Source: Pseudomonas sp. PLMAX (GTDB lineage: Bacteria; Pseudomonadota; Gammaproteobacteria; Pseudomonadales; Pseudomonadaceae). From it: 32,000 nt of DNA. The stretch lies in contig NZ_CP064950.1 of assembly GCF_046042685.1 (NCBI RefSeq), forward strand, positions 483,475 to 515,474. Direction: 5' to 3'. Within the stretch, counting starts at the first letter, position 1, and each line of letters opens with the position of its first letter. Under the pieces are notes generated by a model that did not search any database, was not told the DNA's origin, and saw nothing but the letters and a program-made list of their open reading frames with translations. Below, piece after piece: positions 1-19,054 of the stretch. Position numbers and translations under genes: made by a program.

Positions 1-552
1 CAGCAACGCCTTGGAATTATCGTTCTGGTAGACAGGGTCTCCCCGATACAGCACCAGAGGATTACCCTCCAATCCTTGGATCAGAGCAACATGATCCGAA
101 TCCTCGAAGCATTCCCAGTTCTCAATCACCAGCACCGAGTCGTGCCGGGCGTGCTCAGCGACCCAGCGCCAATTGACGTCAAGGTTCGATCCCGGTGGGA
201 GCGACAAGCTACCATGAGAAAACATCAATGGCCTGTCGACCAAGGTCTTGATTGCCACGCGCTCATCTCGCACCCGGCGACTCGAATCCTTCTCGTTGTT
301 GCTGATTTTTGAGGCTTCAGCCCGAGTTAGATCGTTCAAGGTGTCAGGATCTGTGCGCCAGTCCATACCTCCCTGGGACATCAAGAAACCCTTGATTCGC
401 TCAATCTCACTGAGCTGGAAAAGGCGCTTTGTACCCAACCGACGCCCTAGACCATACTCTTCGCAAAACTCCTCTAACCCCTTACTGCAAGGGTACTCTT
501 CACGACCCCCTTGGCAGATCAGCAAGAGCGTCTTCTTCAGGCTCTTTTGCAT
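1..552 (-). CDS. JetD/MksG-like Toprim-domain subunit (N-terminal 184 codons only; ORF continues past the left edge of the window and is therefore absent from the supplied ORF track)
   Basis: Own translation of the minus strand from ATG at 552-550. It is open for all 184 codons down to position 1: MQKSLKKTLLLICQGGREEYPCSKGLEEFCEEYGLGRRLG...RWVAEHARHDSVLVIENWECFEDSDHVALIQGLEGNPLVLYRGDPVYQNDNSKALL. The strand 'VLVIENWECF' followed by 'LVLYRGD' resembles the glutamate-containing first Toprim strand (hhhhENxxxF) and the next strand of DUF2220/JetD C-terminal domains. The gene overlaps the upstream gene by 16 nt and is the 4th gene of an SMC-type operon. Confidence 0.6.
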   Translation of the reverse strand, partial: MQKSLKKTLLLICQGGREEYPCSKGLEEFCEEYGLGRRLGTKRLFQLSEIERIKGFLMSQGGMDWRTDPDTLNDLTRAEASKISNNEKDSSRRVRDERVAIKTLVDRPLMFSHGSLSLPPGSNLDVNWRWVAEHARHDSVLVIENWECFEDSDHVALIQGLEGNPLVLYRGDPVYQNDNSKALL

Positions 553-1823
553 GCACTTATATCCCAGACTAGTACGTTCCCGCTTCTCACATCCTCGGGC
601 TCAGTCATCCGAGTGATGGTCAGACCGTCGATCAGCGGAGCGCCTGCGTTTTTACGGCTATCGATGGTGCTCATCAAGCACAGCAAAGTTATTTTTGGGT
701 CGATGGTTGCGAGTTCCGGCGTCGAGGCAAGGAACTCTCTGGCCGAAACAGGCTTCTCTGAATCGTTCGCCGCTTTCAGGTAGTTGATGATCGCTGCCTC
801 TACCGGAGTGACCTTGATTTCCACGACCTCTACCGCATCGTCCTCGATCAAGACCCCAACGCTCCTCACCTTACGAGGGACTGCATTGAGAGACGGGATG
901 GTGCGAGCGGTATCAATCAAACCTTCACTGATTTCGTCGCGGCTCAAATCCGGGCTGGCTGTAATCGCAATCCCAGAGGACAGGTAAGCCCAGTCCGGAA
1001 TGTACGGATACTCTTCCGCATCACGGGGTTGATACCCAGGGTTCTTTTGAAGGAACAAACCCATCGAACGAATTCGTTTGGCGACCTGGCCGATTTTGCG
1101 CTCTTTATCCAAGAAGGCTTTCAGCACACTGGTAATATCGAGCAAGATCGCACGCCACCCGGACAAGCGATCCACAATATGGCGATAGTACACAGTGTTC
1201 AGCGGTTCAAACGCCAACGACGATTCTAGAACATCCAGGAAGTCACGATTCTGCAACGCTGTAAGCGTGTCATCGATTTTCTTCATCAACGACAGGTAAT
1301 AATCATTCTGTCGCAGTTTTTCTTTGTAGGTCTGCACATTGGCGAAGTTGTTGTCGGTCAGCATTCGAACACGCATGAGCAGGCCATCAACCTCCTCCGA
1401 CATTTCAAACACAGCGGCGTCGAAGTCACTCAGGTAGATTTCTTGGTCATCTGTACGACCTTCATCTCTCGCCTTACTGAACTCCTCGACCAAAGTACTT
1501 AAGCGGTAAATCTGATCCGCGAAATTGGAGGACACGGTGTAGTTACGGAACCGCTGGAACACCTCATCGAGATGCTTGCTCAGCGTGCTACCCAGGCGGA
1601 AGGACTCCTCCCGCATACCGTCTGGACGCATGACGCGGAACTGTTGCAGCCGGCGAACTGACTTTTGGTTCTGCTCAGTCAGCCCAACCGTACCCCCGCA
1701 GTAGGCATCGGCGATGAGGTGTCGGTCTTTGTACAGCATCTCGATGTACGCCACGATGTCATCATGGCTTTGATTGCCCGTCCGCGTGCCGCCCTTCCCC
1801 GTCGCCTCAATCAGCTCGTTCAT
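537..1823 (-). CDS. Kleisin-sized subunit (JetA/MksF-like) of the SMC-type operon; function inferred mainly from context
   Basis: 428-aa ORF with no catalytic motifs and a largely helical-looking sequence. Its size and its position between a KITE-like gene and a JetD-like gene fit a kleisin. ATGA start/stop overlap with the upstream gene and a 16-nt overlap with the downstream gene. Confidence 0.5.
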   Translation of the reverse strand: MNELIEATGKGGTRTGNQSHDDIVAYIEMLYKDRHLIADAYCGGTVGLTEQNQKSVRRLQQFRVMRPDGMREESFRLGSTLSKHLDEVFQRFRNYTVSSNFADQIYRLSTLVEEFSKARDEGRTDDQEIYLSDFDAAVFEMSEEVDGLLMRVRMLTDNNFANVQTYKEKLRQNDYYLSLMKKIDDTLTALQNRDFLDVLESSLAFEPLNTVYYRHIVDRLSGWRAILLDITSVLKAFLDKERKIGQVAKRIRSMGLFLQKNPGYQPRDAEEYPYIPDWAYLSSGIAITASPDLSRDEISEGLIDTARTIPSLNAVPRKVRSVGVLIEDDAVEVVEIKVTPVEAAIINYLKAANDSEKPVSAREFLASTPELATIDPKITLLCLMSTIDSRKNAGAPLIDGLTITRMTEPEDVRSGNVLVWDISACKRA

Positions 1824-2440
1824 GCCGAAACCTTACGAGCATCGAACGCCTCGTCTTCCTGGCTGATCTGGTCGTGCTGCATCAGGAAGCCGATCACTTC
1901 CTGAACGTATTCAACCTTACCGGTGAACTGGAAGATCTCCTCCTCCTTGTTCACCTCCTCCAGGTAACCTTCGTTCTTGAATTTCTTCAAGATGCGCTCA
2001 AGCCGCTGGCGATCCGAGCCGTCTACGGCAATAGACTTGGTCTGGTTGGCTACCATCCTCAGCGCCTCGGTGAGGCTTGGGTTCTGCGCGATGATGTTCA
2101 TCATCTTGTTCGTCTCGACCTTCTCACCGGGCGAGATCGCGTTGTCATCGCGAGCGGTACGCATGACCAAGTCGAGGAACGAAATCAGGGGGCGCAGGTT
2201 GTTTTTCAGATCCACGAACAATGCCTTCGCGGCCTTTTTGCCTTGATCGTCCAGGTCAGCATGCGTCACGAAGAACGCCATCTCCGATCCGGTCTTGGCC
2301 AGGCGCAAGTCGATCTGGCGCAGGTAAGCATCAACCTTCGCAAAATTGTCCGCGTCACTCAGGTAGGTGTGACCGTCATGGAAACTGACTTTGCAGATGA
2401 ACTTGCCGGAGATCAGTTGGGTAACGATACGGTTAAACAT
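1820..2440 (-). CDS. KITE-like small subunit (JetB/MksE/MukE-like)
   Basis: 206-aa ORF. The N-terminal 'LISGKFICK...YLSDADNFAKVDAYLRQIDLRLAKTGSEMAFFVTH' and the C-terminal 'LERILKKFKNEGYLEEVNKEEEIFQFTGKVEY' look like the two tandem winged-helix units of MukE/MksE/DUF4194 proteins. It overlaps the SMC gene stop by 8 nt (AATGTTTAA) and the next gene by 4 nt. Confidence 0.5.
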   Translation of the reverse strand: MFNRIVTQLISGKFICKVSFHDGHTYLSDADNFAKVDAYLRQIDLRLAKTGSEMAFFVTHADLDDQGKKAAKALFVDLKNNLRPLISFLDLVMRTARDDNAISPGEKVETNKMMNIIAQNPSLTEALRMVANQTKSIAVDGSDRQRLERILKKFKNEGYLEEVNKEEEIFQFTGKVEYVQEVIGFLMQHDQISQEDEAFDARKVSA

Positions 2441-5400
2441 TGGCGGCTACCTCGTGAAGGTTCAGCTCATTGCTGGCAACGACCGTGGTCACAAGGCGAC
2501 GGTCAGCGTCGATGCTGTACGCATTTTTGAACAGCATGAGTGTCTCTGCGTCCGGGTCAGGGAACGCACTCACCAGGGTGATGTTGTTCTGGCTCAGGAG
2601 CTTTCCAAGACCATAGATATTGCCACTATCGATTGCCTTCAACTCGTCCAACGACCAGACCAGGTTGATCGGGACGTTGCGGCGGATACGGTTCAGGAAC
2701 GCGATGAAGATGATCACCAGCACGAGATAGGACAGACCGTTGGAAGACACGTTGTCCAGATCGGCAGAGTTCTTGAACGTCCGGATGTTGCCGTTTTCTA
2801 CGACTTCCCCGCGTATCTGTACCAAATTCTTGAAATCGGCGTTGATACCGTTTTTCATCTCCCAGTGTTCCAGGAGACCTTCGAGCATCTGCACGAATTC
2901 CATATCTGGCAGGTCATCGCTCGCGATAGACCAGTCCCGACGCGCATCGACCAGGCGTTTCACAGTCGGCCAGAATTTCAGCTCGTCCACGGTCGAAATG
3001 ATCGATACCGTCAAGCCGGAGAGGCTCTCGAAGCACGTGCTGTTATCCAGGTACTTCTGCAGCTCACGGTTAAAGCTGTTGATGCGGTTGCTGAAGGTGC
3101 TCAGCTTACGGTGGAACAGTTCGATCTCAGCAGTGATGGTGCGGACTTCAACCATCAAGATCTGCTTCATATCGCTATGACGCGTTTCGAACCACTCCTT
3201 GAAGATCTCCAGCCACTCCAGGCCAGTGTCAGAAGAGACACGTTTTGCCGCTTCCTGCATGTAGTCGAACGGCGGAGTGTTGATCTGCTGGTTAAAGCTT
3301 TTCCTGATCTGCTGGACGTAGCCACTGATCTTCTTGAGCAGGGACTTCTCAGCCTCGAGCGATTCACCCAGCACGGACATCAATGCTTCGGTTGTCCAGG
3401 TTGGGTCGTAGGCATCAATTGCCGCATCGGTAAAGCCAGACAGACGCTCCAGGCCCAGGGTAACCTGGCCCGCCTCTTTGGCCAGCGAGGCTACCAACTG
3501 ATCGGCAGCAGTAGCGGTCGCATTAAGCTCTTCGCTTTTAAGTTTCCACGCCGCTTCGAGTGAAGTGATCTCACCTGCCAGCGCAGCCTCTTTGGCGGTC
3601 GCCGCTTGTGCCTGCTGGTCGTAGCCTTCGCGCAGCGGATACTCGTTTTTAACCCACACTTTGTACTGGGTCACTACCTGCCAGGCGTCACGGCTCAGCT
3701 GGAGTTCCGCTTTAAGGCGCTCGTGCTCAGTTTTAAGCTGGTTGATCTTGTCGACGTCAGCACCTTCCTTACGGAGCGCCTCGTCGCGTTCTGCATTGCA
3801 TTCCTGAATCGCGTTGGAATGCGCCAGCTCGCGGTTGCGGAGCGCGGTTGCGATTCGGGTCTTACCACTTTCTCGATCAGCTACAGCTCTCGAGCGGGAC
3901 TGGGTAAGAGCGTTGCGGCGCAAAGCCTTCTCTTGGGAGAGGTGATCCTGGAACTGGCTCAATGCATCATTGGCCGCATCCAGATTGGCTTGAGCTTTAA
4001 CCAGAGCAGCATCTGCCAGCGATTGGGCTTCGCCGAGACTCTTTTTGTGTTCAAACTTCAGGGCTGTAAGCTCAGTCTCAGCGACCTGAACCTGCGAAAT
4101 CGCCTCCAGTCTGGCTTTGGCAGCGTCGTTATCCGACTTGGTAGCCGCTTTCAGCGCAACAGCGATCTCCGCCTTGTCACCTTCGCACTTCAACTTACCA
4201 GCTTGCAGGCCGGACAGGACGTCACGAGCTTCTTCGATCTGGGTAAGCACCAGGCTTTCATCGGACAGCTCGGTAGGCTGCAAGACATCCAGGTCAATCC
4301 GAAGGCCGAAGATGCTGTGAGCATTTTCCACCAGTTCTGGATTGAGGTCGGTACGCTGGAGAATGTCCTCACGCAATACCTTGGCAATATCATGCTTCCA
4401 TTCCGGCAGCTCGTTACGCAGAAGGTGCAGCAACGTGCCTTCTTTTGGCGTGTGAGCAAGCTGGATTTGTTCGATCAGCGTTTCCTGTTCACCACTTTTC
4501 TTGATGTGCTTGAGGATGGCTGCGTCGACCGCTTCGTCATCCTTGCGGACACGCTCAAGAGCCTGGGTTGCAACACGGTTCTTCTCAACGGCTTCGTCAC
4601 GCACGCGGCGCAGCTTGGTAACTTCGTCGTCTTTGGTGTTCACCCGCTGGATTACATCCGCGTCAGCCTGTGGCCGGGCCGCGTTTTGGCGGGCGGTACC
4701 GAGCTCAATGCTTGCGGCCTGGACTGCGTTTTTAAGCGTGACGTGTTTAGCTTGTGCGTCGGACTCCGCTTTGGCCTCTTGCTCTTCGTAGAGAGCCTCG
4801 GCCTTGGCGATCAGGTCTTCACACAGCTGAGCGATGCTGTCGATCTCGGCGCGAAGGCGCACACGGTCGCTCTCAAGCTCGCCAGCGAGGTTTACCTTGA
4901 TCTGCTCATACTTGGCCCCAATAACAGCGAAGGAGCCCTCCAGCGCAGCCAGGCGGCTTTCAATGGTCTCCAGATCAGACTTCAACTGCTGGGCATTGTC
5001 GACACGCGCAATCTTCCCGGTGATGTCATCAGCCTGGTACTGCTCATAGAGTTCAGTCAGAGCCGTAACCTTGCCGGTCAGCTCTTTAACTTCGATCTCG
5101 GCCCGAACGCGGTTTTTCTCGATTTCGGACACGCTTTGGGTGTGCTGTGATGCGCCAGTATCGCGGGCCTCACGAGAAGTTGTTGCGGTTTTGCTGGCTT
5201 TAGCCTCTTCGGTGGCAAGATGGCCGGCCAGAAGCTTCAGCTTGGATTTTACGCCCGACAGGGTCTCGCGAACCTGACCGTAGTTTTCACGCTCCTCTGC
5301 GGCCTTGTGCATCACAGGCTGCATGCCCATGACTGCGGTGTAAGCGCGGTAGTGACGTGGCCACTCTTCGATCTTGCGACGGTCACTGCGAATGCTTTGT

Positions 5401-6146
5401 GCGCTGTCGGCGCCGGCGTCTTCGGATACACAGTCGACAACAATCGACTGAAGCACCTCGAAGTTGGCTTTACGGGAGAACATGCCGAGCACGATCTTAT
5501 CGACGTGGTTCAGCGGGGTACCGTAGCGCGAGAAGGCATAGTCTGCGCTCAAGCGCTTGATGTAATCCTGTTGCTTGCGATCAGACGAGCTCGGCTTCGA
5601 GTACTGAATCACAGCTTTGTAGTCGGCGTAGTTCTCGATCTGGTGCAGGCTGCACTCGACACCCAGCTCGCTCAAGCGGGCGCGGAAGTCGCGGTTTTTG
5701 ACCAGTTCGTCGTTGTCGAGCACGAACAGCTTCTTGTCATACCCGCTGCGGACAAAGCGGTAAAACACCTTGTCGCTGGACGTGTTGCTGTAGGCCACAA
5801 CCAGGCGCAGAGAGCCGTCATCACGCTGGTATTCGAAAACGATGTAACTCGTTGCGTTCGGCAGGTAGTACTCGATGAACGAGTCTTTGCCTGGCGAGAC
5901 CAGCTTGTTCGGGTTAACCCCGTAAAACAGAGGCAGGAACTGAAGCATCGAGGTCTTACCACGACCGTTACGACCAGTGATTACAGCACCGCCATCGGTC
6001 ACCAGCTCAGTGATACGCCCCTTGGCCAGGGAGTCGATCAGGAAGACTCGATTGATCTTGAACCCACTTTGGGTATCGGCCTTGGCCGGCATCATAGCGT
6101 TGTGACCGTCAGGCAATTCCACGGTGCTTTCTGTACTGGTGTCCAT
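2433..6146 (-). CDS. SMC/MukB/JetC-like ATPase with long coiled coil
   Basis: 1237-aa ORF. Walker A GRNGRGKTS at residues 58-66. Several hundred residues of A/E/K/Q/L-rich coiled-coil-type sequence follow. The C-terminal head half has 'SSNGLSYLVLVIIF' (a degenerate signature-motif region) followed by 'INLVWSLDELKAID' (Walker B D-E plus D-loop). AAGG Shine-Dalgarno about 6 nt upstream of the ATG. Confidence 0.85.
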   Translation of the reverse strand: MDTSTESTVELPDGHNAMMPAKADTQSGFKINRVFLIDSLAKGRITELVTDGGAVITGRNGRGKTSMLQFLPLFYGVNPNKLVSPGKDSFIEYYLPNATSYIVFEYQRDDGSLRLVVAYSNTSSDKVFYRFVRSGYDKKLFVLDNDELVKNRDFRARLSELGVECSLHQIENYADYKAVIQYSKPSSSDRKQQDYIKRLSADYAFSRYGTPLNHVDKIVLGMFSRKANFEVLQSIVVDCVSEDAGADSAQSIRSDRRKIEEWPRHYRAYTAVMGMQPVMHKAAEERENYGQVRETLSGVKSKLKLLAGHLATEEAKASKTATTSREARDTGASQHTQSVSEIEKNRVRAEIEVKELTGKVTALTELYEQYQADDITGKIARVDNAQQLKSDLETIESRLAALEGSFAVIGAKYEQIKVNLAGELESDRVRLRAEIDSIAQLCEDLIAKAEALYEEQEAKAESDAQAKHVTLKNAVQAASIELGTARQNAARPQADADVIQRVNTKDDEVTKLRRVRDEAVEKNRVATQALERVRKDDEAVDAAILKHIKKSGEQETLIEQIQLAHTPKEGTLLHLLRNELPEWKHDIAKVLREDILQRTDLNPELVENAHSIFGLRIDLDVLQPTELSDESLVLTQIEEARDVLSGLQAGKLKCEGDKAEIAVALKAATKSDNDAAKARLEAISQVQVAETELTALKFEHKKSLGEAQSLADAALVKAQANLDAANDALSQFQDHLSQEKALRRNALTQSRSRAVADRESGKTRIATALRNRELAHSNAIQECNAERDEALRKEGADVDKINQLKTEHERLKAELQLSRDAWQVVTQYKVWVKNEYPLREGYDQQAQAATAKEAALAGEITSLEAAWKLKSEELNATATAADQLVASLAKEAGQVTLGLERLSGFTDAAIDAYDPTWTTEALMSVLGESLEAEKSLLKKISGYVQQIRKSFNQQINTPPFDYMQEAAKRVSSDTGLEWLEIFKEWFETRHSDMKQILMVEVRTITAEIELFHRKLSTFSNRINSFNRELQKYLDNSTCFESLSGLTVSIISTVDELKFWPTVKRLVDARRDWSIASDDLPDMEFVQMLEGLLEHWEMKNGINADFKNLVQIRGEVVENGNIRTFKNSADLDNVSSNGLSYLVLVIIFIAFLNRIRRNVPINLVWSLDELKAIDSGNIYGLGKLLSQNNITLVSAFPDPDAETLMLFKNAYSIDADRRLVTTVVASNELNLHEVAANV

Positions 6147-6159
6147 AACCTACCTTAAC

Positions 6160-6181
6160 GAAAAAACCCCTCATGAGGGGT
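6160..6181 (-). terminator. Rho-independent terminator (minus strand) downstream of the 126-aa gene, directly abutting the RBS of the SMC gene
   Basis: Perfect palindrome ACCCCTCATGAGGGGT (6166-6181). On the minus strand it is followed by TTTTTT (A-run 6161-6166 on the plus strand). The minus strand reads ACCCCTCATGAGGGGTTTTTTCGTTAAGGTAGGTTATG. Confidence 0.7.
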
Positions 6182-6242
6182 ATGAATTGGAATGATGTCA
6201 ATATACAGCAATTGTTGCTGAAATTAAAGACTTTCCGGGGTT

Positions 6243-6623
6243 TTACCAGTACGTATAGGCGGCATTTTTCATGAATGGTTCGAGCAGCAGATTGTCCTCG
6301 CTGCCCGTCTTCAGGGCAGAGAGAATTTGCTGTCTGTGGGTACGCCGCAACGGGCGTTCGCAGAACACATTCGTGAATGCGGACGGGGCTTTTCGCATAG
6401 CGTTACGCGAGAGTGGCTGGCCTGCGTCGGAGTGAAGCTTGATTCGCTTCATCTCCAGGAAGCCCTGGTAAGTCTTGGCACCTTTGATCCAGCGGCGGAC
6501 AAAGAGCGAGGAGTGATGAGTAGGGTTGGAGGCTGCCCGCTGGGTTTCCCGTTCAAAGCCAACACGGTTCTCAAAGAACCAATCCTTGAATTGCTCGTCC
6601 CGGCGCCTAAGCGTTCTAGCCAT
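6243..6623 (-). CDS. Hypothetical basic protein (126 aa)
   Basis: The ORF fills the gap between the 533-aa gene and the terminator in the same orientation. The product is arginine/lysine-rich with no recognisable motif. An overlapping plus-strand ORF (6327..6932) is the alternative, but it would be antisense to the operon. Confidence 0.5.
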   Translation of the reverse strand: MARTLRRRDEQFKDWFFENRVGFERETQRAASNPTHHSSLFVRRWIKGAKTYQGFLEMKRIKLHSDAGQPLSRNAMRKAPSAFTNVFCERPLRRTHRQQILSALKTGSEDNLLLEPFMKNAAYTYW

Positions 6624-6659
6624 GCCCTGCTCTACCCCTTGTACCTTGCTCCCTCTACT

Positions 6660-8261
6660 TTAAATGCAGAGATCCTCGGTAAACAACTTTTTGCGCAAGT
6701 ACAGGTTCTTCCAATTGGAATCACGAACAAACTCCTCAGTGAAGATGTCCGGGTAGAGCTTCGCAAAGGCGTCAAAGGTGACCGGATCGAAGTTCCTGAT
6801 TGCGTCCATCGTGCGTGGATCTTTCCAGGTGCTGAGGAAATCGTCCCTGAGATGAATTGCAATCACGTGGCAATCTGGCTCCGCATGGCCGTAAGCGATG
6901 AGCTCCAGATGAGTCAGGTGATCGCGCTTTAACTCCAGCAGGTCGTACGCATCAATGCCGTGGTGGTAAATCATTAGCGCAGACACAAGCTTGGTCGCAG
7001 GCTCATGCGTCTTCAGGGTTGCGATGAGCTCTTTCTGCCTTGTCAGCAGCGCAAAAAGTACTGCGTTACAGTCGATCTTCAGCGACTTCATGAACTGTAG
7101 AGCGTCTTCTTCCGTCATGAATGGCTCTGGTACTGCGGTTCCGGCGATATCCCGAAGCTTGTTCAAGAATGCAGCGCCACCGTGTTCCGCCACAAACTCC
7201 GCCACCGAAACACCGTTAACCTGTAGAGCCCTGAGCAGCATTTTCCCGCGCTTTTCGCTCAATGGGTGTTCCAAGGCAAACCGGCGTCGAACTGAATCGT
7301 TCATCGTCTCTAGCAGCGAATGCCCCGCGCCGCGAATGCTCTCAAGGTCGAACGATTCGACGTCGCCCAAAATGCTATGGTGCACCGTAACCCTTACATC
7401 CAGGCTGTTGCACGCTTTGTGGTAACGCTCGACGTCCACCTCGTACAGCGCCGAGAGGATATTGGTAGAAGCGGTTTTTTTGAACACCTGAGTTGCGAGG
7501 TCAACAACCCGATCATCAGAGTCGGTCAACTCCGGGTTCGGGTAGTTGTACAGCTCACGCTCCAGCTTAAACATTTCCGGAAATTGCGCCATCCACCTCA
7601 GTGCCTCTTGGGAGCCCTCTTTCCCTCCTACTGCACTCATCAAGCACAACGCATCAGTCACTACAGCGCCATGGCTACGTTCGCTTAATAGGTAACCCGA
7701 TTCCACCATGTTCTGGATGAGCCCAGAACAAATCCGTGTAGCCATCGACGCCAGCGCCAAATCCTTTTTACTGGTCGCCCTGTAGGAAACGTGCCCCTCA
7801 GGCTCGTTCAGTAGGTGCCCCATCATCTGCGCCAAGCCGTTCTCGCTGTCCACGATGCCGCCAGCTTCAACGCACTCAATAGCGTTGTAGATATAGGGCT
7901 TTTCGGTACCACCTGAGATCAGGAATGAGAGCCCGGCCAGGATCTGCTCTTGCAATCGAATTGGGTTCGGGTTGATGCTCAGGCAGTGATGCAGAATTTT
8001 GGCCTGTACTACGTAATACAGCCGCCGCTCAAGCAGAATACCAATTTCAGTCTGGATCCTTTCCCGCAAGATTGATTGCTGGGCAATCGAGATGTCCAGG
8101 GCCTGAAACTTCGCTGCAAGATCTGGTATCAGCTCTTCCAGCTTTGTGGCTGCTTTATCCTGCCTGGTGAAATTGGCGTCACTCGTTAATACGCCGATGA
8201 GGCTCTTCAGCTCCATTACCTGGAGTGCTGTATCGCGGATCTTTTCCCTGGACGAGAGCAT
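6660..8261 (-). CDS. Hypothetical protein (533 aa) ending in the shared C-terminal tail ...RKKLFTEDLCI
   Basis: Long ORF. Its start ATG shares one nucleotide with the stop of the upstream exonuclease gene (TGATG). No motif recognised. The C-terminal heptapeptide matches the [FY]xx[ED]L[GSC][VIF] tail seen on other proteins in the window. Confidence 0.8.
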   Translation of the reverse strand: MLSSREKIRDTALQVMELKSLIGVLTSDANFTRQDKAATKLEELIPDLAAKFQALDISIAQQSILRERIQTEIGILLERRLYYVVQAKILHHCLSINPNPIRLQEQILAGLSFLISGGTEKPYIYNAIECVEAGGIVDSENGLAQMMGHLLNEPEGHVSYRATSKKDLALASMATRICSGLIQNMVESGYLLSERSHGAVVTDALCLMSAVGGKEGSQEALRWMAQFPEMFKLERELYNYPNPELTDSDDRVVDLATQVFKKTASTNILSALYEVDVERYHKACNSLDVRVTVHHSILGDVESFDLESIRGAGHSLLETMNDSVRRRFALEHPLSEKRGKMLLRALQVNGVSVAEFVAEHGGAAFLNKLRDIAGTAVPEPFMTEEDALQFMKSLKIDCNAVLFALLTRQKELIATLKTHEPATKLVSALMIYHHGIDAYDLLELKRDHLTHLELIAYGHAEPDCHVIAIHLRDDFLSTWKDPRTMDAIRNFDPVTFDAFAKLYPDIFTEEFVRDSNWKNLYLRKKLFTEDLCI

Positions 8262-8887
8262 CAGAAGAAGCCCTTTCCTGCGTTGACGTTGTTCAGTGAA
8301 GGCCTATCACGCCAAATGCTCTCCGACCGTCCAAACGCAACCGGCAGCAGCTGAGCGATGTTCTTGGCGTCGTCGATGCCCCGGTGTGCCGTGCCCACAA
8401 ACTGAAGGTTTTCGTAGCGCAAGGCTTTACCCAGGCCCGGCGAGTGCCGCTTCAAGCCCAAAGCATCCGCGTATACCTGCTTCACGTTCAGGTGATTTCT
8501 CTGAGAGATACCAGGCGCCGGCAGCTTCAGTAGCGATGCATTGCGATCAAATTGCTTTTTGTCGTAGGCACCCCAACTGCCCCAGCCGGCCACTGGGCCG
8601 AAGGACGATGCGCACTGCTCAAGCCAGGCATCAAGTGTAGTCATCGCCTCTGCGAATCCTGGAGCTGTATCGACGTCACTCTGAGTAATAGTCGTCAGCT
8701 TGGTGCAAAAAGCGGACAGTTGTGGGTGCACAACTGGCTTGATGTACGTCTGAAACTCAGAAATGATCTTTAGGTCTTGATCGACGAGGCAAGCACCAAT
8801 CTCGATAATTTCCATTTGGTCGCGATCAAATTGTGGTTCATCGCAGGTGGCCTCAAGATCAATGAGGCAGAATGTATTGTTCGACAT
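8261..8887 (-). CDS. DEDDh 3'-5' exonuclease (ERI-1 / KapD-like)
   Basis: 208 aa. Exo I 'CLIDLEATCDE', 'MEIIEIGAC', 'SWGAYDKKQF' and Exo III 'HRGIDDAKNIAQL' (H-x4-D) are all in the canonical order and spacing of the ERI-1/KapD subfamily. AGGAA RBS 5 nt upstream, and only 10 nt after the upstream gene. Confidence 0.88.
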   Translation of the reverse strand: MSNNTFCLIDLEATCDEPQFDRDQMEIIEIGACLVDQDLKIISEFQTYIKPVVHPQLSAFCTKLTTITQSDVDTAPGFAEAMTTLDAWLEQCASSFGPVAGWGSWGAYDKKQFDRNASLLKLPAPGISQRNHLNVKQVYADALGLKRHSPGLGKALRYENLQFVGTAHRGIDDAKNIAQLLPVAFGRSESIWRDRPSLNNVNAGKGFF

Positions 8888-8897
8888 TTTAGTTCCT

Positions 8898-10139
8898 TTA
8901 AACTCCTAGTTCCAAAGTGAATACCTTACCCTTCACGGCATTGCTTTTCAAGCGCGGAAGTATTGATTTATCTGATGTTTTTTCATATAGCTTTGCCAAT
9001 ATGTTGTCGGCCTGATCATCTTCGAATCTGCAAACCTGCTTGATGACTTTTTCCATTGGAAGTGACTTTAATAGCTCACCTACCATTGTGTTCACGTATA
9101 CAACTTTCGGGTCTTCATAGTTGCACAGGTCAACAGCCAACTCAGTGAGAAACCCAGACTCTCCAAGCTCTTCAAGATCCATTATCTTGCCGGCGCCCTG
9201 CCCCAGGACTCCGCAATAGAACAACTGAGCGGCCTGTCGAGTAGAAAAGTTAATTTTGCCTACGATTTCAGACATGAGCTCGCACTGGCTGGCATGGTGA
9301 GTCTCAAAATGGGCGTCGATCAGGTTCCGTGGCAGTAGCGCCAGCGACGTAAGGTCGCGCAGAAACTCAAGCCCAGACGTTTCGATGTATGCCATGACCT
9401 TCGGAAGCTCCATCAGCCCATCATCCCAAACCGTATTGAACGTCACACCGATACCCTGCTGGGCTCTCGTACGACCATCGATTGAGAACATGCCAAGCAG
9501 CTTTTCATGAATTTCACTGAAACTCATTTCCAGGGTTCCGTGAATGTTCTGCCTGACCTTGTGGCTGTCTTCATACTTCTGCAACTGAAGGTAGATTCTA
9601 TCAAGACCTCGCTTGCTTTCTCGAAGTGCTCCAGCAATCCTCTTAACCATCTTAGGATCGTCGGCTTTTACGTATTCCATCAGCTTTCGCTGTTCATTCA
9701 CGGTATGGAAAACCTGATAGATATCAAGAAACTCCTTGCTCTCAAAAATAGCGAAATCATCAAGTGGAACGCGCCGCAGCTCTGGAAATTTGACGTAATA
9801 GCCGCACTCAAAACCATCCATGTGATTGTTAATCGCTTGGCGGTTTGATCTTGCAAGTGTCCCGACCACCCATGTCACCATTGATTTATAGTCAGGCGCC
9901 GGAGCCGAAAGGGAGATCGCTATTATTTTCTCAATGGCACTCTTATAAACCTCGCGATCCATCGTGGGGAAAAGGTGCTTGGCCTCTAAAAGCTCTTCTG
10001 CCGTATGACCTTCAGAAATCACGAGCAAAATGAAGTCCTGGCACTGCTTGATCAGTGCTCTCACCCCTTCCTGTTCAATTTCTGGCGGGGAGCCCAGGTC
10101 GTGGCTACCAAGCGAGAAAACTACATTTTCACTGATCAT
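8898..10139 (-). CDS. Hypothetical protein (413 aa) ending in the shared tail ...KGKVFTLELGV
   Basis: Long ORF in a visibly AT-richer stretch and first gene of a minus-strand operon. No motif recognised apart from the C-terminal tail. Confidence 0.8.
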   Translation of the reverse strand: MISENVVFSLGSHDLGSPPEIEQEGVRALIKQCQDFILLVISEGHTAEELLEAKHLFPTMDREVYKSAIEKIIAISLSAPAPDYKSMVTWVVGTLARSNRQAINNHMDGFECGYYVKFPELRRVPLDDFAIFESKEFLDIYQVFHTVNEQRKLMEYVKADDPKMVKRIAGALRESKRGLDRIYLQLQKYEDSHKVRQNIHGTLEMSFSEIHEKLLGMFSIDGRTRAQQGIGVTFNTVWDDGLMELPKVMAYIETSGLEFLRDLTSLALLPRNLIDAHFETHHASQCELMSEIVGKINFSTRQAAQLFYCGVLGQGAGKIMDLEELGESGFLTELAVDLCNYEDPKVVYVNTMVGELLKSLPMEKVIKQVCRFEDDQADNILAKLYEKTSDKSILPRLKSNAVKGKVFTLELGV

Positions 10140-10277
10140 TTAGCTTGTTCCGAAGGTCTTGTCATGGCCCAGTATAGGCCGTGCGCCAGACCCCCAACAA
10201 AGGGAAATCGCCCACCCCGGCGACATTTTCTATGATATGTTCTTCCTTTCTAAGAGCGTTCACATAAGGCGCCGACC

Positions 10278-10877
10278 ATGATTGATCTCACTGGCTTTCC
10301 TATCTCCAACGCAGCACACAGCTCTGATGTAGGCCGATGGCACATCGTCGGCGCTCGCCGCAGACAATCGCTTGCAGAGCACTCGTTCAACGTGCCAATG
10401 TTTGCCACCTACCTGGTCGCAGCTGTCCACCCTGAAATCAGCGAGAGCGATCAGTTGCTGATGCTCTACGGCGGTATGTGGCACGATCAGGCGGAGAACA
10501 AGTCCGGTGACATCCCAACGCCGGCCAAACGTTATGTCGAGAAGTTTTTCCCCAAGGGGCAATCTCCTTTCGATGTCCTCGATGCTGCCATGTGCCCTCC
10601 CTACGCACGGCTCAAGACCAAGCTCGATGGGACTTACCTCGAAGTGATCCTGAAGCTGGCGGACATTATGGATGCTGCTCACTTCATCTCGACTGCAGGT
10701 AACGGAAACGAAGCAACACGCATCTGTGAAGAGCGTTGTAGAGCGTTTGCATCCTATGTCGACATAGGCAAAGCTAAGTGGCCCGAGCTAAACTGGGACG
10801 GCGCCCACACGGTGCTGCATGACTTGCTACACGGCGAGCCAGAGAGCCTCTCTTTCGATGAACTCTTAAGCCATTGA
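10278..10877 (+). CDS. HD-domain phosphohydrolase, YfbR-like 5'-deoxynucleotidase
   Basis: 199 aa. 'GRWHIVGARRRQSLAEHSFNVPMFATYL' ... 'GGMWHDQAENKSGDIPTPAK' ... 'LKLADIMDAAHF' reproduces the RW...E-H-S, H-D...GD-x-PTP-x-K and K-x-AD pattern of YfbR-type HD nucleotidases. The minus-strand ORF 10260..10682 is judged a shadow. Confidence 0.78.
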   Translation: MIDLTGFPISNAAHSSDVGRWHIVGARRRQSLAEHSFNVPMFATYLVAAVHPEISESDQLLMLYGGMWHDQAENKSGDIPTPAKRYVEKFFPKGQSPFDVLDAAMCPPYARLKTKLDGTYLEVILKLADIMDAAHFISTAGNGNEATRICEERCRAFASYVDIGKAKWPELNWDGAHTVLHDLLHGEPESLSFDELLSH

Positions 10878-10886
10878 GGTTGGCCA

Positions 10887-11459
10887 GTGAAACGACTGAT
10901 CATTTTTGACTTGGACGATACGCTGCTTCACGCAGAGCGTAAGCCCTTCGATCTGGCTCAGCTCCAGACCGAAAGCTTCTATATCGCCGTTCGCCCCGGC
11001 ATAACCTCGATGCTGGAGCGTTTGTCGCCCCATTATGACTTCGTGATCTGGAGCAACACCGACCGGGCCTCCATCGATGAGAAGATCGCCGACGTCTGGC
11101 CCAAGCATATCCCCCTCGTTGACATCTTCTGCGATAAAAACAGCAGCAAGCGCCACAACAACGGCCAGGGTGAGCATTTCTTTAAGGAGGTTTGGAAGGT
11201 CATCAAGCGCCATCCCCAGTACACACTGGGCTCGGTGCTTGGGATCGAGGACAAGCCGGAAACCTTCGTGCGCAACTACGGCAATGTGATCCGGGTGTCA
11301 CCCTTCTCCGGAGCCCCTGACCGGGAACTCGACGACCTCACTGATTATTTGCTCTCAATTGCCACGCACCCAAATTATAGAACGCTGGAGAAGCGGCACT
11401 GGAAAGCCGACCTCCGAAGGGCTCGGTATTACGAGGACGAAGAGACTCCGAACCCATAA
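10887..11459 (+). CDS. HAD-superfamily phosphatase, FCP1/NIF (CTD-phosphatase-like) type
   Basis: 190 aa with a GTG start and a GAGG RBS 7 nt upstream. Motif I 'LIIFDLDDTLLH' (DxDxT), 'YDFVIWSNTDRASID' (motif II region) and 'LGIEDKPETF' near the C-terminal motif position. It starts 9 nt after the HD gene. Confidence 0.7.
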   Translation: MKRLIIFDLDDTLLHAERKPFDLAQLQTESFYIAVRPGITSMLERLSPHYDFVIWSNTDRASIDEKIADVWPKHIPLVDIFCDKNSSKRHNNGQGEHFFKEVWKVIKRHPQYTLGSVLGIEDKPETFVRNYGNVIRVSPFSGAPDRELDDLTDYLLSIATHPNYRTLEKRHWKADLRRARYYEDEETPNP

Positions 11460-11513
11460 GCTCAATTTTGATCCACCGCTACCGCCCCAACAAATCCTTT
11501 GCATAGGTGCCCC

Positions 11514-12062
11514 ATGCTCGCACAGCCTCAACATCCCATTCACTACGCCTTCGGCATTGTTAGTCATGCTCCATCCGTGATGGAGGCTTGGGTTCACGAG
11601 CGCCTACTGATCAAAATTCAATACCATGTGCTCTACTTGGCCGTATTCTTCTATGCCGGGTACATCTACGCAGGTATGGGTATGGCCACCGATCTCGCGG
11701 GGATTGGCATCCTGAGCACCTTCCTCATGTCACTGCCGGCACAAGTCCTCAACGGAAAAAAATTCAGCCTGGAGCTCGTCAGCGACTCTTACTTCAACGC
11801 GGTGTTGGCTTTCCACGGATTTTTTCTCACGTATTTCATCGCGTACAACATCGTCACCCTCTTGGCCGCGTATTTCGGATCCTGGACGCTGGGCACGAGC
11901 AATGCCCTGATCTCCCTATCCACCTCCCTCATGATCGGGTACAGCATCCAGCTGGCGGTCACCTCGAACTACAAGCTCAGATGGTTCTTTGTACCCCTGG
12001 TATCTATCGGTCTTGGGTATGGGATGTTCAGAGCGCTTTCCACAGCTGGACTGCCTCATTAA
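11514..12062 (+). CDS. Multi-pass membrane protein (hypothetical); start uncertain (TTG 11499, ATG 11514 or ATG 11580)
   Basis: The track ORF 11499..12062 contains at least four long hydrophobic segments (e.g. YHVLYLAVFFYAGYIYAGMGMA, GIGILSTFLMSL, FHGFFLTYFIAYNIVTLLAAYFG, FFVPLVSIGLGYGMF). The overlapping R/H-rich ORF 11588..12106 looks non-coding. Confidence 0.65.
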   Translation: MLAQPQHPIHYAFGIVSHAPSVMEAWVHERLLIKIQYHVLYLAVFFYAGYIYAGMGMATDLAGIGILSTFLMSLPAQVLNGKKFSLELVSDSYFNAVLAFHGFFLTYFIAYNIVTLLAAYFGSWTLGTSNALISLSTSLMIGYSIQLAVTSNYKLRWFFVPLVSIGLGYGMFRALSTAGLPH

Positions 12063-12139: not shown

Positions 12140-12751
12140 ATGACCAATGTTGTCGCGAGCATTTCGCTTAAGAAGAAGGAAAAACTCAGCCTGCGTAAGG
12201 TTGCTCCAGGTCTGAGCCGTGTACGAGTTGCCATCACATGGCGTGCCGTCCAAGGCCAGGAAGTCGACCTCGACCTGAGTGGGTTTATGCTGAACGATAA
12301 AGATCGCATCCTCACCCAGCAGGACTTCATTTATTATGGGCAGGAAATCTCTCCAGACGGCTCTGTCCATTACCTGGGCGACAACCGCAAGGGCTCGGTG
12401 GATGACGGCAGTGGCTCGCTAGGTGACAGCGAGGCAATCAAAGTAAACCTCGACGACGTCCCGGAGCGGGTCAAGCGAATCGTCTTCGCCGTAACCATCG
12501 ACGGTGCTGACGAGAAACGCCAGAAGTTCAAGCACGCCTCTGAAGCTGTCGCTAGACTGTTCAACGACGTGACCGGTGCCGAAATTGCTCGTTTCCCTCT
12601 GGAAGGTGATTTCAAAGAAGATTCGGCCATGCTGATGGTTGATCTGCATCGTGAAGGCGACAGCTGGGACTTCAACCCGATTGGCCAGGGTTTTAAAGGC
12701 CACCTCGGCGACATCTGCAATTCATACGGCCTGGACATCGGTTACAACTGA
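12140..12751 (+). CDS. terD: TerD-domain stress/tellurite-resistance family protein
   Basis: 203 aa. 'ISLKKKEKLSLRKVAPGLSRVRVAITW...VDLDLSGFML', 'GDNRKGSVDDGSGSLGDSEAIKVNLDDVPERVKRIVFAVTI' and 'ARFPLEGDFKEDSAMLMVDLHREGDSWDFNPIGQGF' match the TerD fold signature, including the Ca-binding GDN/DDG segments. Confidence 0.9.
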   Translation: MTNVVASISLKKKEKLSLRKVAPGLSRVRVAITWRAVQGQEVDLDLSGFMLNDKDRILTQQDFIYYGQEISPDGSVHYLGDNRKGSVDDGSGSLGDSEAIKVNLDDVPERVKRIVFAVTIDGADEKRQKFKHASEAVARLFNDVTGAEIARFPLEGDFKEDSAMLMVDLHREGDSWDFNPIGQGFKGHLGDICNSYGLDIGYN

Positions 12752-12763
12752 TTTCCTCAGCCA

Positions 12764-12796
12764 TAAAAAAAGGAGCGCTAAGCGCTCCTTTTTGTT
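12764..12796. terminator. Bidirectional rho-independent terminator between convergent TerD and ligA genes
   Basis: AAAAAAA-AGGAGCGC-TAA-GCGCTCCT-TTTTG: an 8-bp perfect GC-rich stem (12771-12778 / 12782-12789) flanked by an A-run and a T-run. Confidence 0.85.
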
Positions 12797-12804
12797 GCCT
12801 TTAG

Positions 12805-14856
<2,052 letters not shown>

Positions 14857-17812: not shown

Positions 17813-19054
17813 TCAGACCCCCAGCTCTTGGGTAAATATCCTTGCCTGACCCACTAGCGATGCCTTGGCCTTCCAGCTCACGTCATCGGTCATCTCGGAC
17901 ATTGCAGCTGCCAAATCTGCTGGCAGTGCGCGCTTAAAAAGCGTCTGGGGAGGTATGCCATGAAATAACTTTTCAATGTCTACCTTGAGCGTATCAAAGG
18001 AGTCGCCCATAGGTCTCCTCCATTGCATCTCTTTCGCAAGCGAAGCCACCTTATCGATGGGGTTCAGGCCAGCACGGTAATCATCAGCTGTCAGCTCAAC
18101 GCCGGCGTCTTTGGCTTGGCACAACAGGCTGGCCATACCGGTCATCATGCCCCACAGCTTGCCCTGCCTGAGCAGCTCTACAGGCTTGTTGATGGAGTCA
18201 ATGTTGAAGGTGTCGAGCGCGAACCTCACTGCCGAATTCCAATACGCCAGGTTGTTGGCCTGGTTGAGATGCTCGCAAAGCGCCTCAGAGCTCTTCCAGA
18301 AGCTCATGACTGCCTTATTTAGGCTCACGGGCCCCATCGTCCCTTTGCCGGCCTGTACGCGGCTCAGCAGCTCCAGCTGGAGGGCTATGTCGCCACCTCG
18401 AGTTGGAACCATGATGTCAGGGGCGTCTTTGGCAAGAACCTGCTTAAGCGAATCAGACATTCCCGCATACACGACCTTAAACAGATCGAGATCCTCAGTC
18501 TTCAAAAGCGTTGTGGCAATAAAGGGCATATGAAATGCATCTTTGATCAGATGCTCATACCCGCCGCCAGGCTCCATTGGCCCGGCGTTCAGCGGCTCAG
18601 CCAAGACCTGTGACAGGCCCTGACGCACTGGCGACTCGAGCCACTCAGCCGGCTTCATGCGCTCCATGGCTTTGGTGCTGGTGTGCACCGTCAGCGACAT
18701 CGAGTTCTGGAAGCCCACCAGGTCATCCTGCGACTTGGGGAAAGCTGCCGGGAAGCTCTCCATGGCAAACCTCAGAAACTCAGCCGCATGGCGCCCCTCC
18801 CCCAGTTCTACTAGAGCGCTGCACAGGAAGAATGGATCGAGCCTTCCCTCAGAGCGATGCTTGGCGGAGGTTTCATGGGCCTCCAGCTCTGGGTACAAAG
18901 CTAGGGCACGATCATAGTTTTCAGCAACCGAGATCGGCGTTTCATTCAGGCGCCACATGACATCACGCGCCAGGGCCAGACCCATTTCAGTCCTGAGAGG
19001 GTCGTTCATCAGGGCCGGCTGGCCCTGGCTACGCTCTTCTTTGCGGGCTGTCAT
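17813..19054 (-). CDS. Hypothetical protein (413 aa) ending in the shared tail ...GQARIFTQELGV
   Basis: Long ORF. Its start overlaps the stop of the GHKL gene (ATATGACA, 4-nt ATGA overlap). No motif recognised apart from the tail. Confidence 0.8.
   Translation of the reverse strand: MTARKEERSQGQPALMNDPLRTEMGLALARDVMWRLNETPISVAENYDRALALYPELEAHETSAKHRSEGRLDPFFLCSALVELGEGRHAAEFLRFAMESFPAAFPKSQDDLVGFQNSMSLTVHTSTKAMERMKPAEWLESPVRQGLSQVLAEPLNAGPMEPGGGYEHLIKDAFHMPFIATTLLKTEDLDLFKVVYAGMSDSLKQVLAKDAPDIMVPTRGGDIALQLELLSRVQAGKGTMGPVSLNKAVMSFWKSSEALCEHLNQANNLAYWNSAVRFALDTFNIDSINKPVELLRQGKLWGMMTGMASLLCQAKDAGVELTADDYRAGLNPIDKVASLAKEMQWRRPMGDSFDTLKVDIEKLFHGIPPQTLFKRALPADLAAAMSEMTDDVSWKAKASLVGQARIFTQELGV

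What the first reader, a model, noticed from the sequence alone, without database searches (positions are those of the whole stretch)
1..6146. Wadjet/MksBEFG-like SMC operon with permuted gene order (SMC-KITE-kleisin-JetD) on what looks like a large mobile replicon
**What the sequence shows.** Four minus-strand genes are fused by 8-, 4- and 16-nt overlaps:
- a 1237-aa SMC/MukB-like ATPase (Walker A GRNGRGKTS, a long coiled coil, and a C-terminal head with LVWSLDELKAID);
- a 206-aa protein with two MukE/JetB-like winged-helix units;
- a 428-aa kleisin-sized protein;
- an ORF running off the left edge whose 'VLVIENWECF...LVLYRGD' looks like the JetD/MksG Toprim core.

**Why it is unusual.**
- The parts list is that of Wadjet (JetABCD) or MksBEFG, but the transcription order is C-B-A-D. 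The described types are jetA-B-C-D or mksF-E-B(-G).
- The ABC signature region is degenerate (SNGLS instead of LSGGx).
- Only ~135 aa precede the Toprim strand in the JetD-like protein.

**Interpretation.** Neighbouring genes (Tus-like, H-NS-like, Rsm-like, ligase, tmk) suggest the carrier is itself a big plasmid. Published JetABCD biochemistry indicates that closed-circular DNA below a size limit is cleaved. A very large replicon could therefore carry the system safely and use it to exclude small competitor plasmids. A condensin/partition role for the replicon itself is the alternative.
Basis: partly seen in the sequence, partly recalled or inferred. Interest (0 to 1): 0.8.

Follow-up and report, generated by a model that had tools for sequence, protein, structure and literature searches.

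The report
Wadjet-like SMC nuclease operon, BEFG type
A Pseudomonas megaplasmid carries an intact four-gene SMC-plus-nuclease operon related to the plasmid-cutting Wadjet systems; its unusual gene order is real, but it is the fixed order of a whole, already catalogued and still untested branch of that group.

Summary
Four overlapping minus-strand genes encode:
- an SMC ATPase (Pfam DUF3584, E 1e-177);
- a KITE protein (Pfam MksE, E 7e-15);
- a 428-aa protein with a predicted MukF/JetA-type kleisin layout;
- a compact Toprim nuclease (DUF7281), whose predicted fold best matches Topo VI-A and the MksG nuclease.

The order SMC-KITE-kleisin-nuclease is not a local permutation. It was present in all 27 complete homologous operons I inspected.

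This clade is already listed as "BEFG" operons in Data S1 of Bürmann et al. 2025. I tied the window's family to two of their entries by sequence. The arrangement is therefore catalogued. However, the clade is unnamed, has no published biochemistry, and is missed by the PADLOC Wadjet models.

The operon sits in the conserved backbone of a family of about 1 Mb Pseudomonas megaplasmids.

The proposed function, excluding small plasmids while the large carrier stays safe, is inferred only. A 40-kb Acinetobacter plasmid carries the same system, which weakens the size argument. A core-like chromosomal position in Moritella and cisplatin-sensitivity phenotypes in Shewanella keep a genome-maintenance role open.

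Verdict: new member of a known kind; moderate interest.

The parts
2433..6146 (-). SMC-type ABC ATPase (MksB/JetC role), 1237 aa. Contains Walker A (K64), a central hinge-like conserved block around residues 570-640, signature variant SSNGLSYL, and Walker B/D-loop DELKAID.
   Evidence: PF12128 DUF3584 matches at full length, E 1.2e-177. The motifs are at least 95% conserved in 23 family members. BLASTP to the MksB of a Bürmann BEFG operon is collinear, E 6e-24 and 1e-17. No JetC model of PADLOC hits.
1820..2440 (-). KITE subunit (MksE/JetB/MukE role), 206 aa. Its start overlaps the SMC stop by 8 nt.
   Evidence: PF21980 MksE, E 7.1e-15, 56 bits against a cut-off of 27, covering residues 2-182. 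DUF4194/JetB is weak, E 0.0046.
537..1823 (-). Kleisin (MksF/JetA/MukF role), 428 aa. It overlaps the KITE gene by 4 nt.
   Evidence: No Pfam, PDB-sequence or hhalign signal. The AF2 model (pLDDT 74) shows an N-terminal winged helix, a long helical bundle, a disordered linker at 260-335 and a C-terminal winged helix. The top six Foldseek PDB hits are MukF or JetA chains, E 4e-3 to 9e-2. Homologue P0224 is the protein Bürmann et al. list as MksF.
1..552 (-). N-terminal 184 codons of a compact Toprim nuclease (MksG/JetD role). The full length is 281 aa in the 97%-identical relative P0004. It overlaps the kleisin gene by 16 nt.
   Evidence: PF23947 DUF7281, E 3e-9. The AF2 model of P0004 has pLDDT 91. 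Foldseek matches Topo VI-A 1d3y at 9e-6 and C. glutamicum MksG 8b7f at 1.5e-3. E144-N145, D196-x-D198 and E270 are invariant, and there is no invariant Tyr. The D-x-D motif lies beyond the window edge.
6147..6230 (-). Conserved leader of the operon. It holds a TATATTGACA box, a terminator-like hairpin ACCCCTCATGAGGGGT plus a T-run (6181..6160), and the Shine-Dalgarno AAGGTAGG (6156..6149).
   Evidence: Pattern scan and sequence. The stem is kept, with different loops, in the P. silesiensis and P. serbica plasmids. Its function is inferred only.

Best explanation
The region is an intact member of the Wadjet group (MksBEFG/JetABCD-like) of SMC complexes. It belongs to a distinct clade defined by a DUF3584 SMC, an MksE-type KITE, a fast-evolving kleisin and a compact DUF7281 Toprim nuclease, always encoded in the order B-E-F-G with overlapping reading frames.

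The mechanism below is inferred by analogy with characterised JetABCD/MksBEFG systems; none of it is shown here. The kleisin bridges the two heads of an SMC dimer and carries a KITE dimer. The complex loads on DNA and extrudes loops using ATP. When it has extruded a whole small circular molecule, it licenses the Toprim nuclease dimer to cut it.

The operon lies in the backbone of a roughly 1 Mb Pseudomonas megaplasmid. There it would remove small competing plasmids from the host while the carrier escapes by its size.
For: **Composition.**
- Pfam DUF3584 1e-177, MksE 7e-15, DUF7281 3e-9.
- The nuclease fold best matches Topo VI-A and MksG.
- The kleisin layout is MukF/JetA-like, and the top Foldseek hits are MukF/JetA.
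- A clade member's nuclease hits JetD1/2/3 models at 1.6e-6 to 4e-3, and Pfam DUF2399 and JetD_C.

**Signs of activity.**
- ATPase motifs are conserved.
- The Toprim E, DxD and QE residues are kept even in members at 20-30% identity.
- The nuclease gene is present in 26 of 27 complete loci and in 11 of 12 BEFG entries of Bürmann et al..

**Placement in the Wadjet group.** Bürmann et al. 2025 assign MksB/E/F/G to these operons. Their MksB proteins form a 100%-bootstrap clade. I linked the window's family to that clade by sequence.

**Carrier.** Flank synteny is shared with 1.06-1.17 Mb Pseudomonas plasmids. Most intact plasmid-borne copies lie on replicons of 107 kb to 1.17 Mb.
Against: - No experiment exists for any member of this clade as a plasmid-restriction system.
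- PADLOC's Wadjet models do not recognise the SMC, KITE or kleisin.
- Kleisin homology rests on a medium-confidence model and weak Foldseek E-values.
- A 40-kb plasmid, and probably a 50-kb one, carry the system. This is hard to reconcile with size-based self-avoidance.
- In Moritella the operon sits among housekeeping genes and is conserved across species.
- In three Shewanella species, DUF3584 and two neighbouring genes are needed for cisplatin tolerance and motility (bioRxiv 10.1101/072470).
Confidence: 0.6

Rival explanations
1. This is a genome-maintenance SMC complex. The BEF core acts as a condensin or repair factor for the replicon that carries it, here a megaplasmid and elsewhere a chromosome. 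The Toprim partner processes damaged, entangled or dimeric DNA rather than foreign plasmids.
For: - In Shewanella, DUF3584 and two co-fit neighbours are specifically important under cisplatin and for motility.
- In Moritella the operon lies between housekeeping genes, and its kleisin cluster spans many species.
- The operon is a backbone element of a roughly 1 Mb Pseudomonas megaplasmid family. It is better conserved than its flanks and lies among ligase, RNase H and exonuclease genes.
- It also occurs on 0.88-0.94 Mb Vibrio plasmids.
- It occurs on a 40-kb plasmid that a size-sensing nuclease would be expected to cut.
Against: [quoted passage not shown] Here the nuclease is nearly always kept, with catalytic residues intact.
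- Distribution is sporadic and neighbourhoods vary in most lineages, as expected for accessory or defence genes.
- I could not establish whether the Shewanella operon includes the nuclease.
Confidence: 0.27
2. This is not a Wadjet-group complex but another coiled-coil ABC ATPase system, such as Rad50/SbcC-like or Lamassu-like, that happens to sit next to a Toprim protein.
For: - The SMC has no detectable sequence match to any PDB chain or to JetC models.
- A weak LmuB hit (1.6e-4) was seen for the Acinetobacter homologue.
- The kleisin has no sequence-level match to MukF or JetA.
Against: - A bona fide MksE-family KITE scores above the Pfam threshold. KITE subunits are specific to kleisin-containing SMC complexes.
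- The third protein has a kleisin-type fold layout.
- Iterative profile searches by Bürmann et al. place these SMCs inside the MksB tree.
Confidence: 0.05
3. This is a decaying remnant with no current function.
For: - Degraded copies exist elsewhere: L017/L026 and L032.
- A 222-aa SMC fragment cut by ISAhy2 sits on an IncHI2A plasmid. About 16 further Enterobacterales plasmids give the same N-terminal-only match.
Against: - In the window all three complete genes are intact and the fourth is open up to the window edge.
- Overlapping starts and stops are preserved.
- Operon proteins are 70-82% identical to plasmid relatives whose flanking proteins are 30-72% identical.
Confidence: 0.03

Closest known systems
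'BEFG' operons in Data S1 of Bürmann et al. 2025, Cell (PMC7617805), clusters 1-12: for example Psychrobacter arcticus AAZ19231-4, Acinetobacter indicus pB18-1, Paraferrimonas sp. SM1919 and Ferribacterium limneticum
   Same: They share the order B-E-F-G, the gene sizes (about 1210-1300 / 206-217 / 405-442 / 283-303 aa), the overlapping frames and the Pfam content (DUF3584, DUF7281). I linked them to the window by sequence.
   Different: The window's copy is a divergent member: 22-30% SMC identity to the Acinetobacter branch and about 35-45% to betaproteobacterial ones. It sits on a Pseudomonas megaplasmid. The published list is only a table, and the main text of the paper does not discuss the clade.
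Wadjet types I-III (JetABCD; Doron et al. 2018) and MksBEFG of Corynebacterium glutamicum
   Same: They have the same four roles: kleisin, KITE, SMC and a CAP+Toprim nuclease. The nuclease fold matches MksG (8b7f) and Topo VI-A. All are co-directional operons.
   Different: - The order here is C-B-A-D in Jet nomenclature.
- No PADLOC JetA/B/C model hits, whereas a canonical type II control hits at 1e-95 to 1e-303.
- The nuclease is about 281 aa, against 368 resolved residues in the solved MksG chain 8b7f and 444 aa for the type II JetD used as control.
- The ABC signature reads SSNGLS.
- Function is untested.
MukBEF / MksBEF condensins
   Same: The architecture is SMC-kleisin-KITE. The KITE belongs to the Pfam MksE family. 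The kleisin model resembles MukF.
   Different: Those complexes lack a nuclease and are encoded F-E-B. Here a Toprim nuclease is translationally coupled to the kleisin gene.
DUF3584 genes of Shewanella (Sama_0592-0594; Price et al., bioRxiv 10.1101/072470)
   Same: They share the Pfam family of the SMC, next to two co-fit hypothetical genes that likely correspond to the KITE and the kleisin.
   Different: They are chromosomal. The only phenotypes on record are cisplatin sensitivity and motility. I could not check whether a DUF7281 gene follows.

Membership tests
Wadjet group sensu lato (MksBEFG/JetABCD/MukBEF-like SMC complexes) | SMC-type ABC ATPase with Walker A/B, a signature motif, long coiled-coil arms and a central hinge | tested here: met
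   Motifs are present and conserved, with a central conserved block around residues 570-640. PF12128 matches at full length. The coiled coil and hinge are inferred from sequence, not from a model.
Wadjet group sensu lato (MksBEFG/JetABCD/MukBEF-like SMC complexes) | KITE subunit of the MukE/MksE/JetB family | tested here: met
   PF21980 MksE scores 56 bits against a cut-off of 27.
Wadjet group sensu lato (MksBEFG/JetABCD/MukBEF-like SMC complexes) | Kleisin with an N-terminal WHD, helical bundle, flexible linker and C-terminal WHD | tested here: met
   The AF2 layout fits, and the top six Foldseek hits are MukF or JetA. E-values are weak (4e-3 to 9e-2) and there is no sequence-level signal. 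A homologue is listed as MksF by Bürmann et al..
Wadjet group sensu lato (MksBEFG/JetABCD/MukBEF-like SMC complexes) | Toprim nuclease partner (MksG/JetD) with catalytic E and DxD | tested here: met
   Foldseek matches Topo VI-A at 9e-6 and MksG at 1.5e-3. E144, D196 and D198 are invariant. A clade member hits the JetD models and the DUF2399/JetD_C families.
Wadjet group sensu lato (MksBEFG/JetABCD/MukBEF-like SMC complexes) | ATP-dependent restriction of circular plasmids | not testable with these tools
   This needs transformation or conjugation assays, or biochemistry.
Wadjet types I-III as defined by Doron et al. 2018 and the PADLOC models | Proteins match the JetA, JetB, JetC and JetD profile models | tested here: not met
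   The window proteins and full-length P0004 hit no Jet model, at E up to 1 for the window proteins and up to 0.01 for P0004. A Bacillus type II control scores 1e-95 to 1e-303.
Wadjet types I-III as defined by Doron et al. 2018 and the PADLOC models | Gene order jetA-jetB-jetC-jetD (F-E-B-G) | tested here: not met
   The order is B-E-F-G in the window and in 27 of 27 complete homologous loci.
BEFG clade (DUF3584 / DUF7281; Bürmann et al. 2025 Data S1) | SMC matches PF12128 at full length, the nuclease matches PF23947, and the order is B-E-F-G with overlapping frames | tested here: met
   Two listed operons show the same content and are homologous to the window's proteins: A. indicus pB18-1 and Paraferrimonas.
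MukBEF / MksBEF condensins | No associated nuclease gene | tested here: not met
   A DUF7281 Toprim gene overlaps the kleisin gene by 16 nt.

The most novel reading that the evidence does not exclude
The BEFG (DUF3584/DUF7281) clade is a functionally distinct fourth branch of Wadjet-like systems. Its main job would be maintenance of large replicons, not restriction of small plasmids. It would provide damage tolerance or disentangling through an SMC-guided Topo VI-A-like nuclease. Megaplasmids of about 1 Mb in Pseudomonas and Vibrio would have recruited it as their own chromosome-style organiser.
Probability: 0.22. Interest if true: 0.7.

Novelty: new member of a known kind. Interest (0 to 1): 0.4.

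Why it matters
**Why it matters.**
- Wadjet is the best understood example of an SMC motor used as a DNA-shape sensor. The field currently works with three types.
- The clade seen here has the same four roles in a more compact form. PADLOC's Wadjet models, a standard defence-annotation library, miss it.
- It is common on roughly 1 Mb plasmids and is core-like in some marine genera. It also has a published DNA-damage phenotype.
- It is therefore a ready test case for two questions: whether nuclease-bearing SMC complexes can serve genome maintenance, and how a plasmid can carry a plasmid-cutting machine.

**What does not matter.** The window's copy adds a clean, intact example, but it does not reveal a new architecture.

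Tried and rejected
**Sequence searches that found nothing.**
- NCBIfam gave no family for any of the four proteins.
- phmmer of the SMC against PDB sequences found nothing. The KITE gave only chance-level hits.
- The kleisin profile had no meaningful hit against PDB sequences.
- hhalign of the kleisin profile against E. coli MukF, a type II JetA, the Acinetobacter kleisin and the Phocaeicola 407-aa protein gave no significant match.
- hhalign of the nuclease profile against a type II JetD was weak, E 0.014, covering only the DxDPxG-to-QE region.

**Context searches.**
- Megablast of the rest of the window against plasmids found nothing.
- Pfam on 20 further neighbouring ORFs returned only TerD and MvaT.
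- Motif scans for CsrA-like and Tmk-like proteins were empty.

**Shewanella.** I tried to locate a Shewanella member to see whether it keeps the nuclease. None of the representatives I could name was from Shewanella, and no further paper mentions those genes.

**Ideas rejected.**
- That the roughly 17 Enterobacteriaceae IncHI2A-type plasmid hits are intact systems. The one I examined holds a 222-aa fragment cut by an IS element.
- That the signature motif is degenerate.
Full report
**1. What is in the sequence**

- On the minus strand there are genes of 1237 aa (2433..6146), 206 aa (1820..2440) and 428 aa (537..1823).
- A frame open from 552 runs to the left edge, 184 codons.
- The overlaps are 8, 4 and 16 nt.
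- GC content is unremarkable, 0.52-0.565 against about 0.53 for the window.

**2. Identity of the four proteins**

*SMC.* Pfam matches the large protein end to end to PF12128 DUF3584, E 1.2e-177.
- An alignment of 23 non-identical family SMCs shows these motifs at least 95% conserved: Walker A TGxNGxGKTS, a central block consistent with a small hinge, the signature variant SSNGLSYL, and Walker B/D-loop DELxxxD.
- The signature is therefore a conserved family trait, not decay.

*KITE.* The 206-aa protein matches PF21980 MksE above threshold, 7e-15.

*Nuclease.* The edge ORF matches PF23947 DUF7281, 3e-9.
- It is cut by the window edge, so I used relatives.
- P0004 is 281 aa and 97% identical over the 184 residues.
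- An alignment of 53 homologues has E144-N145, D196-x-D198-P-x-G and E270 invariant, with no invariant tyrosine.
- The profile weakly matches Topo VI-A in the PDB, aligning E and DxD, E 0.011.
- The AF2 model has pLDDT 91. Its best structural matches are Topo VI-A (1d3y, 9e-6) and the C. glutamicum MksG nuclease (8b7f, 1.5e-3).
- It is thus a compact CAP-plus-Toprim nuclease of the MksG/JetD kind, without a topoisomerase-type tyrosine.

*Kleisin.* The 428-aa protein has no Pfam, NCBIfam, PADLOC or PDB-sequence match.
- With 41 homologues, AF2 gives pLDDT 74.
- The model shows an N-terminal winged helix, a long helical bundle, a disordered linker (260-335) and a C-terminal winged helix.
- The six best Foldseek hits in the whole PDB are MukF or JetA chains, although E-values are only 4e-3 to 9e-2.
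- I accept it as the kleisin, with that caveat.

**3. The gene order is a clade property**

- I fetched homologous loci through the nuclease and kleisin families.
- I scored every ORF with family profiles.
- All 27 complete loci read B-E-F-G on one strand.
- The E/F overlap is 4 nt in every complete locus where both genes were scored. The F/G overlap is about 16 nt in most.
- Later loci from Paraferrimonas, Moritella, a Vibrio megaplasmid and a small Acinetobacter plasmid show the same order.
- The kleisin family has 324 representatives at 50% clustering with E below 1e-3, and 211 below 1e-10, among 1.84 billion. The family is modest in size but widespread.
- A Phocaeicola plasmid carries a DUF3584 SMC and an MksE KITE with similar gene sizes in the canonical order F-E-B-G. 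The rearrangement therefore happened within this lineage and the parts did not change.

**4. It is already catalogued**

- Data S1 of Bürmann et al. 2025 (PMC7617805) lists Wadjet-group operons with subunit assignments.
- Its first twelve clusters have the structure 'BEF' or 'BEFG', with gene sizes and overlaps like those here.
- In their tree file the twelve MksB proteins form one clade with 100% support.

I tied the window's family to that clade directly in two ways.
- *A. indicus pB18-1 operon (their cluster 7).* The SMC is DUF3584 (1.8e-114). The fourth protein is DUF7281 (7.8e-31), also hitting DUF2399 and JetD_C. Its SMC aligns collinearly with the window's. Its nuclease matches my profile.
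- *Paraferrimonas sp. SM1919 (their cluster 11).* One hit of my kleisin profile, P0224, is WP_163931782.1, the MksF they list for this organism. Its locus has the same four families at their coordinates.

The main literature still speaks of three Wadjet types, and no paper in the library names this clade.

PADLOC's Wadjet models do not see the window's proteins or full-length P0004.
- A canonical type II operon used as positive control scores 1e-95 to 1e-303.
- That control's JetC does not hit PF12128. PF12128 therefore marks this lineage specifically.
- The Acinetobacter nuclease does hit JetD1/2/3 models weakly, 1.6e-6 to 4e-3. This is sequence-level evidence of common descent with JetD.

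**5. The carrier**

- Only the operon has a nucleotide-level match in the plasmid collection: 78.7% to the 1.17 Mb P. silesiensis plasmid pPL1.
- At protein level the flanks are syntenic with pPL1 and with the 1.06 Mb P. serbica plasmid.
  - Upstream: genes of 126 aa and 533 aa, shared with both plasmids, and an RNase T-like gene, matched in pPL1 only.
  - Downstream: genes of 157 aa and 168 aa, an RNase H gene and an AI-2E-type transporter gene.
- Flank identities are 30-72%, against 70-82% for the operon proteins.
- A near-identical relative lies on a 501-kb metagenome contig.
- The window also encodes an MvaT-type silencer, TerD, a second NAD-ligase and a patatin.
- I conclude that the operon is part of the backbone of a family of roughly 1 Mb Pseudomonas megaplasmids. 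This is inferred from relatives.

**6. What it does**

All of this section is inferred. The retained parts and catalytic residues argue for an active SMC-nuclease machine. By analogy with JetABCD/MksBEFG, the most likely activity is loop extrusion followed by cleavage of small circular DNA.

- Plasmid-borne copies with a near-full-length SMC match mostly lie on replicons of 107 kb to 1.17 Mb.
- These include four Vibrio plasmids of 0.88-0.94 Mb.

Observations against it:
- The 40,249-bp Acinetobacter plasmid pACI-b25a has an intact-looking B-E-F-G array with its Toprim residues in place.
- A 50-kb plasmid gives the same kind of hit.
- The apparent abundance in Enterobacteriaceae IncHI2A-type plasmids is an artefact of an N-terminal fragment cut by ISAhy2, examined in one record.

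Observations that keep a maintenance role alive:
- The Moritella operon lies between housekeeping genes, and its kleisin cluster covers many species.
- In three Shewanella species, DUF3584 and two co-fit neighbours matter under cisplatin and for motility.
- I could not determine whether the Shewanella operon keeps the nuclease.

**7. Verdict**

- The 'permuted order' is real, but it is the standard form of a catalogued, unnamed and uncharacterised Wadjet-group clade.
- The window adds a new, intact, megaplasmid-borne member.
- The functional story is plausible but untested, and its size-based element is weakened.
- Interest is moderate. It rests on the clade as a whole rather than on this copy.

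Noticed in passing
window 6160..6230 (-): A terminator-like hairpin (ACCCCTCATGAGGGGT plus T6) lies 20 nt before the Shine-Dalgarno and start codon of the SMC gene, after a conserved TATATTGACA box. The stem is kept, with different loops, in the P. silesiensis and P. serbica plasmids. There is no room for a promoter after it, so transcription must read through it, which suggests attenuation.
   Followed up: partly
L038 (Acinetobacter sp. ACNIH1 plasmid pACI-b25a, 40,249 bp), 1073..7547: An intact-looking B-E-F-G operon with conserved Toprim residues sits on a 40-kb circular plasmid, next to ISAba12 and a recombinase. It is a counter-example to the idea that only very large replicons can carry the system.
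   Followed up: partly
L036 (K. pneumoniae p2723-384k, IncHI2A), 8950..9615: This plasmid holds only a 222-aa N-terminal fragment of a DUF3584 SMC, cut by an IS630-like ISAhy2. About 16 further Enterobacterales plasmids of 266-455 kb gave the same N-terminal-only match but were not examined individually.
   Followed up: partly
L039 (Phocaeicola massiliensis 76-kb plasmid), 5200..11517: The same compact system (407 aa; 193 aa MksE; 1220 aa DUF3584; 292 aa weak JetD_C) appears in the canonical order F-E-B-G. The order changed within the DUF3584 lineage.
   Followed up: partly
L034/L035 (Moritella viscosa), 4568..11180: The BEFG operon lies between an amino-acid permease and menaquinone-type genes on one side and cytochrome oxidase, tpiA and pfkA genes on the other. 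The kleisin's 90% cluster has 48 members from many Moritella species, so it looks core-like rather than island-like.
   Followed up: partly
L017 and L026 (same betaproteobacterial MAG contig CALNXP010000031.1): Two copies of the system lie about 3 kb apart. One has about 3.6 kb inserted between the SMC and KITE genes and no nuclease. The other is broken into many fragments.
   Followed up: no
window 1820..2440 (-), N-terminus of the KITE protein: The KITE proteins of the clade start with a conserved MF[NKE][RQ] peptide. A review (PMC10586767) reports an N-terminal IFDR motif in JetB that contacts JetD. The resemblance is a lead, not a test.
   Followed up: no
window 17813..20748 (-): A 565-aa protein with a GHKL ATPase domain (HATPase_c_3) and a weak WLM-like metalloprotease match overlaps a 413-aa protein of unknown family by 4 nt. 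This could be a second conflict-type gene pair.
   Followed up: no
window 27125..27517 (+): An MvaT-type xenogeneic silencer (MvaT_DBD, 5e-19) lies in the AT-richest part of the window (GC 0.445). This fits a Pseudomonas megaplasmid carrying its own silencer.
   Followed up: no
window 12140..14820: A TerD-domain protein (12140..12751, +) lies next to a complete NAD-dependent DNA ligase paralogue (12805..14820, -). A 784-aa patatin-like phospholipase lies at 24362..26716 (-).
   Followed up: no
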